A DNA stretch of 23,775 bases from a virus (Duplodnaviria; Heunggongvirae; Uroviricota; Caudoviricetes). The DNA lies in the IMG/VR virus record IMGVR_UViG_2541047805_000001. One strand, given 5' to 3'. The notes beneath the pieces are model-generated. The model was not told the origin of the DNA, ran no database searches, and was given only the letters and a program-made list of their open reading frames with translations. Shown piece after piece: positions 1,658 to 4,221 of the stretch. The position numbers and the translations under genes were made by a program. Every line of letters begins with the position of its first letter. Within the stretch, counting starts at the first letter, position 1.

Positions 1658-4129
1658 TTAAGAATCAGCCTGACTCGGGATCAGTTTTTGCCAGATAACT
1701 GAAACGTATTTTGCCTGGTAACGGGCGTCATCAAGTGCATTATGGCGCTCACCTTCGAATGGAATAGCCGTTCTGGCATCGAAGTCTATGGCTTTCCCCA
1801 GCTCAACGATTGTGCGTACATCGCGATCGTTGTAGTAACGCCACGGGCAGGGGATCCCCTGCCGTTCGTATGAACGGCGCAAAATCGTGTTGTCGAAGTT
1901 GGCTCCATTTCCCCAAACCTGAACAAAAAATTCACCGGAGTTTTCGTCGATAAATTCTCGCAATTGTAACAGTGCATCATCTAACGGGATTTCATCGGTC
2001 ATAATGGCAGATTGCGCTTCGCGTGATTGCTTAAGCCACCATTTAATGGTGTCCCGATCAATGACTCCGCCAGCAGTTTCCAGATCGATAGTCTTACTAA
2101 ATTCCGGTCCCATATCTCCGGTTTGCGGATCGAAAAATATTGCACCTATTGAGATGATCGGGGCATCAGGATTTTTTCCCATGGTTTCAAGGTCGATCAT
2201 TAGATGGTCACACGTCCTGCTGGTGGATGTGATTTCGTGATGACCGTTCACCTTAATTGGGTGATCTGCCGTCTCGCCAGTTTCATTATCGCTATTGTGA
2301 TGCTGATTGCCGCCAGTGTTCTCCTTGTGTGGATGTTCAGCGCCTTCCATTTCCTCCGGATCATCTTCCTGAACTTCAACCTGATACTCTTCATCGAATG
2401 TTTCTTGGTATGTTGCGTCGCCCATCACCGCGCCACAATCAGGGCAGTTGCCGCCGCCGGTCTGACCGCAGGCGGTGCAGACTTTTTCCACTTCCTGTTG
2501 CGCTACTGGTTCAGGCTGTTTCGTTTCTGGCTCGTTTTGTAACGCATTTGGACTGTTTTGTTCCGCTTTTTGGTAGTTCCGTTCCGATTCATGCTGGTTC
2601 TGGTTCACAGAATCGCGGGTCTGGAGCCCCTTAACCCATTTCGGATCATTCGGGTCACTAATCCCTTCAACAAATTCACCACGTGATGCAGCAAGCAACT
2701 TATCGGCGTCAGGCTGGCTGATATTGGCTGCCTGCATAATTTTGTTTACTTCGTCAGCGGTAACTTTTATCGGCTCTGGTTGTTCTGAATCTTCAGCGGT
2801 ATCTACATTTTGCGGTAAGCCCGTGTATGTGCCATTTTTTCGGGCAAAATATTCTTCTTTTGTGATTTCAGTGGCGCCAGCAGCCAGTGCCTTATCCAGA
2901 CCAGAGAGTTTGTTTGCGCGACCGTATTTTTCTCCGTCCTTATCTGCGAAGAGGAAATAGAACGGCCCCTCACGCTCTACAGATGGTTCAGCTTCCGGCG
3001 CGGTTTCATTTTTTGGGATATCAGATACCTCAGTTTCCACTGCATCAGTTTGTGTTTCTGATGACTGGAGAACATCAACAGTGCCCAGGTCTGTTTCTTC
3101 ATTCTCAAACACGCCCTTTGTCGTCAGGTATTCGCAGATATATTTGTTCAGTGCTACGGGATCTTTGTGAATGTCGATCGGACGCTCACGGACAAGGCCA
3201 AAAATAGTTTGGCGGTCGTAGCGAAGGGCATCAGGCTGTTTGCGCATTGATGCCGAGATACGCTTCCAGTCTTCGCGGTCGTTGTCGATAACTTCTTTTT
3301 TTGCCCAGCGATGGATGCTGCCGTCAATGTTTCCGGCATCCACATCACTAGGCCAGAGAGCGTAGGCCAGTTCGTCATCCAGTGTTTTCCATGTCTGCTT
3401 GTATTCGCGATGAATGGCAGCAATGACCGGGCTGATTTTTCCTGTTGAATTTTCAGTGTACTGTTGATTGGCTCTGGCGCGGGCGAGATCAACAACAGAC
3501 GTGTATTTTCCGGTTTCCTTGCGTTCACCTTCGCGACGTTTTTTCCAGATGCGCATCTCTGCCTGAATTTCGGGCCATTTAGCACCAGGAATACATTTAT
3601 GCTTAACCCACCCAATGGCGTGCAACTTAAGCTCCGGATACATGGCGTTAACTTCTGGCATTTTCATCAACGCTTCAACGATATGTCCGTCGAATGTTGC
3701 CATGTCTTCCTGCAACAATTCCTGTGCGCTAATAACCATATCAACGGTGATGTTTTCACATGTGTCGAACTTAACCATGACAGCGTTCTGTACTTCAGGG
3801 GCCAGCTTGTCAAAAGTGACGTTCATCGGATCGGATTCAGTCTCAACCGGGACAAAAGAAGCAGACTCCTCATCCCAGCGGTTTTCCTGCATATATTCAG
3901 CATCCCATGAATCGAGGGCAGGGCGGGGTATGCCAGGTTTATCCTCGCAGACAATAAATTTATAAGCGCAGTCCTGAGCAGCCGGATAATGTTCCAGGAA
4001 TTGCCAGTGAAATTTTGCTCGAGCACGGCGTTCGTCGCCAGCTTCAATGGCTGTGGCTACAGCCACAGCGCCTTCTTCCCTTGTTGCCAGTTCGTCAGGA
4101 ATAGCGGCGCAAATAAAGACTTTACTCAT
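1658..4129 (-). CDS. Large phage exonuclease annotated in databases as exodeoxyribonuclease VIII-like; C-terminal DEDDh (DnaQ-like) 3'-5' exonuclease domain
   Basis: ORF runs 1658..4165 with a TTG at 4165; ATG at 4129 (MSKVFICAA) has a GAGG about 9 nt upstream. C-terminus carries DnaQ-like motifs ([20 protein letters not shown]). Central acidic low-complexity region and a CxxC-x8-CxxC zinc ribbon ([16 protein letters not shown]). Occupies the position of the K-12 ydfE pseudogene. Confidence 0.8.
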   Translation of the reverse strand: [823 protein letters not shown]

Positions 4130-4221
4130 TTGTTTTAACCTCATGACAGATTTAAGGATGAACAAATCCCTGCCATTGCTGGCATATAAGAATGAAACCG
4201 GATATTTATTACGGAACTGTT

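What the first reader, a model, noticed from the sequence alone, without database searches (positions are those of the whole stretch)
1658..4165. Large exonuclease with DnaQ-like DEDDh domain, zinc ribbon and acidic linker, and no annealase partner
The protein is in the position where lambdoid phages encode exo/bet or recE/recT, and it has segments I associate with RecE-family proteins (e.g. [26 protein letters not shown]). Its C-terminal domain, however, carries DEDDh 3'-5' exonuclease motifs ([15 protein letters not shown]) rather than a lambda-exo/RecE-type fold. Upstream are a CxxC-x8-CxxC zinc ribbon and a long Glu/Asp/Gln-rich linker. No RecT/Bet/Erf-like gene is adjacent, because ydfD follows directly. 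The K-12 copy of this gene is recalled to be disrupted, so an intact copy is useful for functional work.
Basis: partly seen in the sequence, partly recalled or inferred. Interest (0 to 1): 0.5.

Follow-up and report, generated by a model that had tools for sequence, protein, structure and literature searches.

The report
Intact Qin prophage YdfE 3'-5' exonuclease
This is the intact form of the E. coli Qin-prophage gene ydfE: it has the non-catalytic body of the recombination nuclease RecE but a DexA-type 3'-5' exonuclease in place of RecE's 5'-3' nuclease and no annealing partner; the gene is very common, already annotated, and has not been studied experimentally.

Summary
The gene is real, on the minus strand at 1658-4129, and encodes 823 aa from ATG 4129; the TTG at 4165 is not the start. 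It is RefSeq WP_000048342.1 'exonuclease'. Residues 1-256 are identical to the K-12 ydfE pseudogene, which IS2 cuts. Residues 262-627 are homologous to RecE 278-592, and the similarity stops at the boundary of RecE's nuclease domain. The C-terminal domain (aa 641-820) matches Pfam Rv2179c-like at E 2.4e-67. Its DEDDh residues D646, E648, D746, H796 and D801 are kept in 96-100% of 89 diverse homologs. The predicted fold matches T4 DexA, RNase T and Orn, and nothing PD-(D/E)XK. No annealase lies nearby in the window, in five phages, or in 80 viral contigs. The gene occurs in 4800 of 5426 complete E. coli genomes and in viable phages, so it is already known and annotated, though I found no experimental study. 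The body also occurs with a PD-(D/E)XK head followed by RecT, and with a fused Rad52-family annealase. The most likely function is a metal-dependent 3'-5' exonuclease on DNA ends, expressed from the early-left operon and working without its own annealase. The biological role is unresolved.

The parts
1658..4129 (-). Full CDS, 823 aa plus stop. This is the intact ydfE, RefSeq WP_000048342.1 'exonuclease'.
   Evidence: ORF. Annotated start and end. PHROG 2082 matches the full length.
4139..4142 (-). GAGG Shine-Dalgarno-like element, 9 nt upstream of ATG 4129.
   Evidence: Upstream sequence printed.
3095..4129 (-). N-terminal body, aa 1-345 (Pfam YdfE_N PF27430 plus YdfE_C PF27432). Predicted units are aa 1-97 alpha/beta, aa 104-205 helical, aa 203-238 disordered and aa 245-340 helical. 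No known fold relative was found.
3362..4129 (-). aa 1-256, 100% identical to what remains of K-12 YdfE before the IS2E insertion.
3110..3397 (-). aa 245-340, helical domain shared with the middle of RecE (RecE about 278-360).
   Evidence: BLASTP. pLDDT 92-97. Segment mapping.
2825..2968 (-). aa 388-435, a small beta-hairpin/helix domain ([20 protein letters not shown]...). It is conserved across all head types.
   Evidence: pLDDT 86-93. Segment 'M' hits.
2264..2707 (-). aa 475-622, the segment with DNA-level similarity to K-12 recE (78% nt identity; about 86% to other recE alleles). The similarity ends at ...ETGETAD, which corresponds to RecE residue 588.
   Evidence: (H24).
2627..2704 (-). 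Conserved motif [26 protein letters not shown] (aa 476-501), inside a stretch that is otherwise predicted disordered.
2435..2479 (-). Four-cysteine zinc ribbon [15 protein letters not shown] (aa 551-565).
   Evidence: Shared with RecE 517-531. Present only in the E. coli-type subset of the family. The same module sits on the tail of a Dam methylase in L123.
2210..2434 (-). Acidic linker, aa 566-640, predicted disordered.
   Evidence: D+E 0.28 for aa 576-640. pLDDT below 50 for aa 567-636.
1670..2209 (-). DEDDh 3'-5' exonuclease domain, aa 641-820, of the Rv2179c-like/DexA family.
   Evidence: PF16473 E 2.4e-67. pLDDT 90-98. Foldseek finds DexA at E 3e-10 with TMt 0.65-0.72.
2183..2194 (-). Exo I motif DLET (D646, E648).
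   Evidence: D conserved in 88 of 89 and E in 85 of 89 homologs. Aligns to DexA D7/E9.
1892..1909 (-). Exo II motif NGANFD (D746).
   Evidence: Conserved in 87 of 89. Aligns to DexA D119.
1727..1744 (-). Exo III motif HNALDD (H796, D801; H-x4-D).
   Evidence: H conserved in 89 of 89 and D in 87 of 89. Aligns to DexA H186/D191.
1334..1585 (-). Excisionase gene immediately downstream. This is context: it occupies the position where recT sits in Rac.
   Evidence: compare Rac.
4222..4413 (-). ydfD, immediately upstream in the same operon, followed further upstream by dicB (4410-4598) and DicF (4773-4824).

Best explanation
This is the undamaged version of the Qin-type lambdoid prophage gene ydfE. 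It is the last large gene of the leftward early operon (dicA-controlled: ydfA-ydfB-ydfC-DicF-dicB-ydfD-ydfE-xis-int).

Shown here:
- The protein is a mosaic. A non-catalytic body of the RecE family carries a C-terminal DEDDh domain of the DexA/Rv2179c family exactly where RecE carries its PD-(D/E)XK 5'-3' nuclease. The body consists of YdfE_N/YdfE_C folded units, a small conserved domain, and a long acidic disordered linker that holds a conserved motif and a 4-Cys zinc ribbon.
- All five DEDDh catalytic residues are present and conserved.
- No annealase gene accompanies it.

Inferred:
- The head is an active two-metal-ion 3'-5' exonuclease. D646, E648, D746 and D801 would bind Mg2+, and H796 would act as general base.
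- Its substrate is most likely the 3' ends of DNA. The closest characterised relatives (T4 DexA, E. coli EcD) act on DNA. The same body is otherwise attached to a dsDNA-end exonuclease or to a Rad52-type annealase.
- It is made when the prophage is derepressed.
- It works without a dedicated single-strand annealing partner, so it is not a RecET/Red-type two-component recombinase.

What the processed ends are used for is not established. Candidates are host-dependent recombination, trimming of 3' tails or flaps, and nuclease attack on other DNA.
For: - Identity and context.
- RecE-body homology ending at RecE residue 588.
- DEDDh family membership: Pfam E 2.4e-67; residues conserved in 96-100% of 89 representatives clustered at no more than 50% identity; alignment to DexA catalytic residues; PDB profile hits DexA, DnaQ, Orn, REXO2 and PolC exonuclease; AF2 pLDDT 90-98 and Foldseek hits DexA, RNase T, Orn, 3'hExo and Cap18.
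- No annealase: the window and PGAP annotation; phages PhiR42_1, mEp460_ev081, Tritos, vB_EcoS-640R1 and Evi; 80 IMG/VR loci with 0 RecT hits and no annealase-sized same-strand neighbour.
- PD-(D/E)XK-headed relatives do have recT directly downstream: Rac and L017.
- A third sibling class has a Rad52/Rad22-family annealase as its head. This ties the body to DNA recombination.
- The gene is kept full-length in at least 3489 complete E. coli genomes and in viable phages.
- DexA and EcD act on DNA (PMC12153337).
Against: - No biochemical data exist for this protein or for any long fused form.
- The Pfam family is named for an exoribonuclease. Its structural neighbours RNase T and Orn act on RNA, so an RNA substrate is not excluded.
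- The function of the body is unknown. Fold searches gave nothing.
- A 3'-5' polarity yields 5' tails, which are not the classical recombination substrate.
- Only the RecT family was searched by sequence in the 80 loci. Other annealase families were excluded only by neighbour size and clustering.
- Operon expression is inferred from gene order and from the lack of a convincing terminator, not measured.
Confidence: 0.6

Rival explanations
1. Prophage-encoded exclusion nuclease. Like the stand-alone E. coli DexA homologue EcD ('HREX'), the DEDDh head would selectively degrade incoming phage DNA that carries modified cytosines, protecting the lysogen from T-even phages.
For: - Same Pfam family; 38% identical to the EcD-type 189-aa protein, E 2e-37.
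- EcD is reported to degrade 5hmC DNA and to protect against T4 (PMC12153337).
- A close full-length homologue (VUF53858.1) is listed among DexA homologues in that paper's Table S3.
- The gene is retained in about 88% of complete E. coli genomes, including in defective prophages.
Against: - The residues that paper assigns to 5hmC recognition are not kept. DexA W152 aligns to Y766, and D169 aligns to about A780.
- The Asp whose loss defines the EcD 'dimer-only' state is retained, as D718.
- The gene sits in the repressor-controlled early-left operon, not in a lysogeny-expressed module.
- PADLOC gives only a weak generic DEDDh hit.
- The long RecE-type body is unexplained by this model.
Confidence: 0.15
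2. Exoribonuclease. The head would act on the 3' ends of RNA, as reported for M. tuberculosis Rv2179c, RNase T and Orn. For example, it could process or degrade phage or host transcripts or short oligoribonucleotides during induction.
For: - The best Pfam model is '3'-5' exoribonuclease Rv2179c-like'.
- Structural neighbours include RNase T, Orn/REXO2, ERI and 3'hExo.
- The operon also encodes the sRNA DicF.
Against: - The nearest solved and characterised relatives by sequence and fold are DNA exonucleases, DexA ranking first.
- The body is shared with a dsDNA exonuclease and with a Rad52-type annealase.
- RNase T itself also trims DNA.
Confidence: 0.1
3. Classical recombination exonuclease that uses an annealase supplied in trans. 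The partner could be RecT of Rac or the SSAP of another resident prophage, so the missing partner would only be a matter of gene location.
For: - E. coli genomes carry a median of 2 and up to 10 copies of related genes, along with many lambdoid prophages.
- The RecE-like body is retained.
Against: - The domain through which RecE works with RecT, the PD-(D/E)XK nuclease, is exactly the part that has been replaced.
- The polarity is opposite to what SSAP loading needs.
- Viable phages that carry the gene have no SSAP in the recombination region.
- 0 of 80 loci have RecT nearby.
Confidence: 0.1
4. Functionless remnant. The gene would be a decaying cryptic-prophage ORF kept only by hitch-hiking.
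For: - The surrounding prophage is defective: truncated terminase, an IS remnant and partial replication genes.
- K-12 and many other strains carry truncated copies.
Against: - The 823-aa frame is intact in at least 3489 genomes at 87-100% nt identity, and in inducible or viable phages.
- Catalytic residues are conserved across more than 80 diverse representatives.
- The folded domains are predicted with high confidence.
Confidence: 0.03

Closest known systems
E. coli K-12 ydfE (b1577, Qin prophage pseudogene); RefSeq WP_000048342.1 'exonuclease'; Pfam YdfE_N/YdfE_C
   Same: It is the same gene. Residues 1-256 are 100% identical, the flanking genes are the same (ydfD upstream, int downstream), and the RefSeq protein is identical in many strains.
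   Different: The K-12 copy is cut by IS2E after codon 256, so it lacks the linker, the zinc ribbon and the whole nuclease domain.
RecE (exodeoxyribonuclease VIII, Rac prophage, b1350)
   Same: - Same operon position, upstream of xis/int.
- Homologous central body and linker: aa 262-627 against RecE 278-592, with 78-86% nt identity over aa 475-622.
- Same zinc ribbon and the same acidic linker ending at the nuclease boundary.
   Different: - Different N-terminal module: YdfE_N instead of PF06630.
- DEDDh 3'-5' head instead of the PD-(D/E)XK 5'-3' head.
- No recT downstream.
- Scores 281.6 bits against the NCBIfam equivalog cutoff of 1269.
Phage T4 DexA (exonuclease A; PDB 8KEL/8KEN)
   Same: - Same Pfam family and fold.
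- Best PDB hit by sequence (E 1.5e-6 for the single sequence) and by Foldseek (E 3e-10).
- Catalytic D7/E9/D119/H186/D191 align to D646/E648/D746/H796/D801.
   Different: - About 22-27% identity.
- DexA is a 227-aa stand-alone protein of a virulent phage and has extra loops.
- The proposed 5hmC-recognition residues W152 and D169 are not conserved here.
EcD / 'HREX' (E. coli stand-alone DexA homologue, HAK9828821.1; Kang et al. 2025, PMC12153337)
   Same: Same family, 38% identity to the EcD-type 189-aa ORF recovered through the published primer. It is also carried on mobile elements of enterobacteria.
   Different: - EcD is stand-alone (189 aa).
- EcD has Ala at the DexA-D90 position and Trp at the W152 position. 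This protein has Asp (D718) and Tyr (Y766).
- Its genomic context is different.
- Its anti-T4 function has not been tested for this protein.
M. tuberculosis Rv2179c (founder of Pfam PF16473)
   Same: The profile match covers the whole 177-position model at 226.5 bits.
   Different: Rv2179c is a small stand-alone chromosomal protein described as an exoribonuclease (the Pfam description and my own knowledge). No direct comparison was run here.
Sibling proteins with the same body but other heads (P0257: PD-(D/E)XK plus RecT next door; P0255: Rad52/Rad22-type annealase)
   Same: They share YdfE_N/YdfE_C and the small middle domain, and the same position in lambdoid early-left operons.
   Different: The C-terminal catalytic module differs.

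Membership tests
DEDDh (DnaQ-like) 3'-5' exonucleases, Pfam PF16473 Rv2179c-like/DexA family | Profile match above the curated threshold over the whole domain. | tested here: met
   226.5 bits against a cutoff of 27, E 2.4e-67, model positions 2-177 of 177.
DEDDh (DnaQ-like) 3'-5' exonucleases, Pfam PF16473 Rv2179c-like/DexA family | Exo I (DxE), Exo II (D) and Exo III (H-x4-D) catalytic residues are present and conserved in homologs. | tested here: met
   D646, E648, D746, H796 and D801 are conserved in 96-100% of 89 representatives and align to the DexA catalytic residues.
DEDDh (DnaQ-like) 3'-5' exonucleases, Pfam PF16473 Rv2179c-like/DexA family | RNase H-like alpha/beta fold of DEDDh enzymes. 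| tested here: met
   AF2 pLDDT 90-98 for aa 641-820. Foldseek PDB hits are DexA, RNase T, REXO2/Orn, 3'hExo, ERI, CRN-4 and Cap18, with TMt 0.6-0.72. This rests on a predicted structure only.
DEDDh (DnaQ-like) 3'-5' exonucleases, Pfam PF16473 Rv2179c-like/DexA family | Metal-dependent 3'-5' exonuclease activity. | not testable with these tools
   Needs an enzyme assay.
RecE / exodeoxyribonuclease VIII (NCBIfam NF007259 equivalog) | Full-length equivalog score at or above the cutoff. | tested here: not met
   281.6 bits against a cutoff of 1269. Only model positions 271-600 of 877 match.
RecE / exodeoxyribonuclease VIII (NCBIfam NF007259 equivalog) | C-terminal PD-(D/E)XK 5'-3' nuclease domain (PF12684-type). 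| tested here: not met
   Absent from this protein. Present in K-12 RecE at aa 615-850.
RecE / exodeoxyribonuclease VIII (NCBIfam NF007259 equivalog) | N-terminal Exonuc_VIII domain (PF06630). | tested here: not met
   No hit. RecE residues 2-178 match it. Other DEDDh-headed relatives such as P0243 do carry it.
RecE / exodeoxyribonuclease VIII (NCBIfam NF007259 equivalog) | Central non-catalytic region and linker with the zinc ribbon. | tested here: met
   BLASTP E 2e-61 over aa 262-627. Near-identity from aa 474 to 622.
Two-component phage recombinase (exonuclease plus single-strand annealing protein; RecET / Red type) | An annealase gene (RecT, Red-beta, Erf or Rad52-like) next to the exonuclease gene. 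| tested here: not met
   None in the window or in related phages. 0 of 80 loci have RecT, and none has an annealase-sized same-strand neighbour.
Two-component phage recombinase (exonuclease plus single-strand annealing protein; RecET / Red type) | 5'-3' dsDNA exonuclease that generates 3' tails. | tested here: not met
   The head belongs to a 3'-5' family. Polarity itself was not assayed.
HREX / EcD-type 5hmC-DNA-specific defence exonuclease (Kang et al. 2025) | DexA-family catalytic core. | tested here: met
HREX / EcD-type 5hmC-DNA-specific defence exonuclease (Kang et al. 2025) | Trp and an acidic residue at the DexA W152/D169 positions, proposed to recognise 5hmC. | tested here: not met
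   The aligned residues are Y766 and about A780. The alignment around D169 is loose, so the second residue is uncertain.
HREX / EcD-type 5hmC-DNA-specific defence exonuclease (Kang et al. 2025) | Loss of the tetramer-forming Asp (DexA D90 to Ala). | tested here: not met
   D718 is retained. The EcD-type ORF has Ala78.
HREX / EcD-type 5hmC-DNA-specific defence exonuclease (Kang et al. 2025) | Protection against T4 and selective cleavage of 5hmC DNA. | not testable with these tools
   Needs plaque assays and nuclease assays.
YdfE family (Pfam PF27430 YdfE_N, PF27432 YdfE_C) | N-terminal region assigned to these families. | tested here: met
   Proteins 83-100% identical over aa 1-345 carry both families in the precomputed table. 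The local Pfam copy lacks these models, so no direct score was obtained.

The most novel reading that the evidence does not exclude
The non-catalytic body shared by RecE and YdfE may be a general recombination platform that accepts interchangeable catalytic heads.
- a PD-(D/E)XK 5'-3' exonuclease, with recT next door;
- a DEDDh 3'-5' exonuclease, with no annealase;
- a fused Rad52/Rad22-type annealase, with Gam upstream and no exonuclease.

Both N-terminal variants (PF06630 and YdfE_N) occur with both nuclease heads. If the body delivers whichever head it carries to one common target, such as DNA ends, the replisome or a host factor, two things follow. The DEDDh form would define an annealase-independent end-processing route of opposite polarity in lambdoid phages. 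The unknown function of RecE's first roughly 560 residues would also become testable by head-swap experiments.
Probability: 0.3. Interest if true: 0.6.

Novelty: already known. Interest (0 to 1): 0.3.

Why it matters
- The first roughly 560 residues of RecE are still described as a domain of unknown function (PMC11611040), even though full-length RecE behaves differently in recombineering.
- This gene is a natural experiment. It has the same body and linker, joined at the same boundary (RecE residue 588), but a nuclease of opposite polarity and no annealase.
- It is among the commonest prophage genes in E. coli: 4800 of 5426 complete genomes, often in several copies.
- It is present in Stx-converting and other viable phages.
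- No functional study of it was found.
- An intact copy such as this one, or those in phages PhiR42_1, mEp460, Tritos and HannyBb, is the right starting material, because the K-12 copy is truncated.
- As a sequence feature it is ordinary and already annotated.

Tried and rejected
- PADLOC gave only a weak generic CRISPR-associated DEDDh hit, E 1.8e-5. The protein is not a catalogued defence protein.
- An apparent 'split' version in L012 (ORFs of 456, 157 and 183 aa) is an assembly artefact caused by runs of N. I rejected it.
- The Rad52 idea for the third head failed at first. hhalign against RAD52 gave probability 2.9%, the PDB profile search found nothing, and Pfam was sub-threshold at 17.8 bits. 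It was then settled through intermediate homologs that pass the Pfam threshold.
- Separate translation of the nuclease domain from M644. Only an AGGA 14 nt upstream was found, which is not convincing.
- Promoter and terminator scans around the gene gave no more sites than shuffled sequence.
- Literature searches for ydfE, Rv2179c and ydfE plus exonuclease found no functional study.
- One search failed because of a frame error on my side. One search was lost and was repeated.
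Full report
**What the window is.** The window is the Qin-type cryptic lambdoid prophage of a non-K-12 E. coli strain, integrated next to rspB. The gene order is int, xis, the gene in question, ydfD, dicB, DicF, ydfC/B/A, dicA, dicC, and then relBE, hokD, lysis genes, csp genes, nohA and a truncated terminase. The prophage is defective: the replication genes are partial, there is an ISNCY remnant, and the terminase is fused to a tail-fibre fragment. 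The gene under study is intact.

**The observation.**
- The ORF at 1658-4165 (-) exists.
- All annotated records start it at ATG 4129, giving 823 aa and 2472 nt. A GAGG lies 9 nt upstream.
- The quoted motifs are present: DLETMG at aa 646-651, NGANFD at aa 741-746, HNALDDARY at aa 796-804, and the RecE-like [26 protein letters not shown] at aa 476-501.
- The zinc ribbon is CxxC-x7-CxxC at aa 551-565.
- The linkers are rich in Asp, Glu and Gln and are predicted disordered.

**Identity.** The protein is RefSeq WP_000048342.1 'exonuclease' and matches PHROG 2082 over its full length.
- Residues 1-256 are 100% identical to the K-12 ydfE pseudogene, which IS2E cuts at that point.
- The DNA is found in 4800 of 5426 complete E. 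coli genomes. At least 80% of it is present in 3489 genomes, with a median of two places per genome.
- It is also present in sequenced phages: PhiR42_1 (100% identity), HannyBb, Tritos, mEp460_ev081, Evi, the PPompW group and some Stx2a-converting phages.

**C-terminal domain.**
- Pfam PF16473 (Rv2179c-like 3'-5' exoribonuclease) matches aa about 642-813 at E 2.4e-67, with a weak RNase_T hit as well.
- The only PDB sequence hit of the whole protein is 8KEL/8KEN, which Foldseek labels as DexA.
- A library of 1.84 billion representatives held 11,747 relatives at E up to 0.001, most of them through this domain.
- In an alignment of 89 representatives, D646, E648, D746, H796 and D801 are kept in 96-100%. 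They align with the DexA residues D7, E9, D119, H186 and D191.
- A profile of 40 family members finds DexA, DnaQ, oligoribonucleases, REXO2 and the PolC exonuclease in the PDB, and no PD-(D/E)XK protein. DexA was itself in that profile, so its E-value is inflated.
- In the full-length AlphaFold2 model the domain has pLDDT 90-98. Foldseek returns DexA (E 3e-10, TMt 0.65-0.72), then RNase T, REXO2/Orn, 3'hExo, ERI, CRN-4 and Cap18.

**RecE relationship.**
- BLASTP against K-12 RecE aligns aa 262-627 with RecE 278-592 (E 2e-61, 39% identity). From aa 474 to 622 the two are nearly identical, including the zinc ribbon.
- At the DNA level the similarity covers nt 1425-1867 of this gene (78% to K-12 recE, about 86% to other recE alleles). 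It ends after ...ETGETAD, which corresponds to RecE residue 588.
- Beyond that point RecE has its PD-(D/E)XK domain (PF12684, aa 615-850), whereas this protein has the DEDDh domain.
- The NCBIfam exoVIII equivalog matches only positions 271-600 of its model and scores far below its cutoff.
- The N-terminus is not RecE's PF06630 domain. It belongs to the newer Pfam families YdfE_N and YdfE_C.
- The protein is therefore a relative of RecE's body but not a RecE.

**Anatomy from the models.**
- aa 1-97 is alpha/beta, aa 104-205 is helical, and aa 203-238 is disordered.
- aa 245-340 is helical with pLDDT 92-97.
- aa 346-385 is disordered.
- aa 388-435 is a small beta-hairpin/helix domain with pLDDT 86-93.
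- aa 439-640 is mostly disordered. It holds the conserved motif at 476-501 and the zinc ribbon, which has pLDDT of about 69.
- aa 641-820 is the nuclease.
- Fold searches with the N-terminal model gave nothing informative.
- The zinc ribbon is found only in the E. coli-type subset of the family.

**Annealase.**
- No ORF longer than 111 aa lies between the gene and dicA. Downstream are only xis and int.
- The same arrangement is seen in PhiR42_1, mEp460_ev081, Tritos, vB_EcoS-640R1 and Evi.
- I examined 80 IMG/VR loci whose C-terminal domain is at least 99% identical. Sixty-five have the YdfE_N architecture, 12 have the RecE N-terminus and 3 are cut. None has a RecT homolog within 7 kb.
- Clustering of the neighbours in those loci shows integrase, repressors and replication proteins, and no annealase-sized gene on the same strand.
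- By contrast, recT follows recE in Rac. A YdfE_N-type protein with a PD-(D/E)XK head (P0257) is followed by an overlapping RecT-family gene.

**Modularity.**
- Among representatives, both N-terminal types occur with both nuclease heads.
- A third group (P0255, P0267, P0268, P0296, P0348) has the same body but a roughly 260-aa head with no Pfam hit at the usual threshold.
- A profile of that head finds stand-alone proteins of about 240 aa at E 1e-53 to 1e-60. These pass the Pfam Rad52_Rad22 threshold, and one is named as such.
- P0255 aa 512-732 is 40% identical to one of them, E 3e-51.
- In its locus P0255 is preceded by a Gam-like gene and followed by Sipho_Gp157, xis and int.
- So the body can carry a 5'-3' nuclease, a 3'-5' nuclease or an annealase.

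**Closest characterised relatives.**
- Kang et al. 2025 (PMC12153337) solved T4 DexA and described a stand-alone E. coli homologue, EcD. They report that EcD degrades 5hmC DNA and protects against T4.
- Their Table S3 lists VUF53858.1, the 826-aa homologue of this gene in phage Evi, among DexA homologues.
- Using their primer I recovered the EcD-type ORF. It is 189 aa, starts MIDTET..., has Ala78, and is 38% identical to this C-terminal domain.
- In this protein the residues they link to 5hmC recognition are Y766 and about A780. The Asp lost in EcD is retained as D718.
- The defence function therefore cannot simply be transferred to this protein.

**Mechanism.**
- Shown: the architecture, the conserved catalytic residues, the fold family, the operon position and the absence of an annealase.
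- Inferred: two-metal 3'-5' exonucleolysis; DNA 3' ends as substrate; expression with the dicB operon on derepression, since no convincing terminator lies between ydfD and the gene; and action without a dedicated annealase.
- The biological purpose remains open.
- The rivals are exclusion of modified phage DNA, RNA processing, use of an annealase supplied in trans, and no function at all. They are listed with the tests that would decide between them.

**Verdict.** The feature is a common gene that is already annotated, so its novelty is low. The head-swap pattern on the RecE/YdfE body is the part worth following up.

Noticed in passing
L018:5650-7986 (P0255); also P0267, P0268, P0296, P0348: Proteins with the same YdfE_N/YdfE_C body carry a Rad52/Rad22-family annealase as the C-terminal head. 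They are 40% identical (E 3e-51) to a stand-alone protein that passes the Pfam PF04098 threshold. PHROGs label them 'exonuclease'. In the L018 locus the order is Gam-like gene, this protein, Sipho_Gp157, DUF3268, xis, int, with no exonuclease gene.
   Followed up: yes
L017:768-4354: A YdfE_N/YdfE_C protein with a PD-(D/E)XK (DUF3799) head is followed by an overlapping RecT-family gene (E 2e-36), the same arrangement as recE-recT in Rac.
   Followed up: yes
L123:5187-6167 (-): A D12-class Dam methyltransferase lies next to an EcD-type exonuclease gene. Its C-terminal tail, [28 protein letters not shown], is the same zinc-ribbon module as aa 551-578 of this protein and RecE 517-544. The ribbon therefore looks like a mobile module of about 28 aa.
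   Followed up: partly
L102, L107, L117, L118, L120, L123 (189-aa ORF starting MIDTETLGNG): This ORF is probably the 'EcD' of Kang et al. 2025. The forward primer matches exactly and residue 78 is Ala. The printed reverse primer differs from these loci by one extra A.
   Followed up: partly
L009:5703-9005: In Salmonella prophages a stand-alone 189-aa homolog (57% identical to the head) occupies the same last position before xis/int. It is preceded by a dATP/dGTP pyrophosphohydrolase (PF04447) gene.
   Followed up: no
L012:737-3127: An apparent three-ORF split of the gene (456, 157 and 183 aa) is caused by runs of N in a draft assembly. P0186 and similar 'stand-alone' E. coli entries of 183 aa may be artefacts of the same kind.
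   Followed up: yes
window 6571-7600 and about 21580-23775: The prophage is defective. The closest annotated genome has partial YdaT-like and DUF977 genes, an ISNCY transposase remnant, and a terminase large subunit truncated and joined to a tail-fibre fragment. The exonuclease gene is nevertheless intact.
   Followed up: partly
window 12951-13343, 15854-16239, 20238-20436, 4773-4824: Rfam hits above the gathering score: two cspA-type thermoregulator leaders, the IS009 RNA, and DicF (minus strand, in the same operon as the gene).
   Followed up: no
P0249 (702 aa), tail aa 445-702: This is a fourth head type on the same body. It has no Pfam hit and matches PHROG 26058 (unknown function). It was not characterised.
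   Followed up: no
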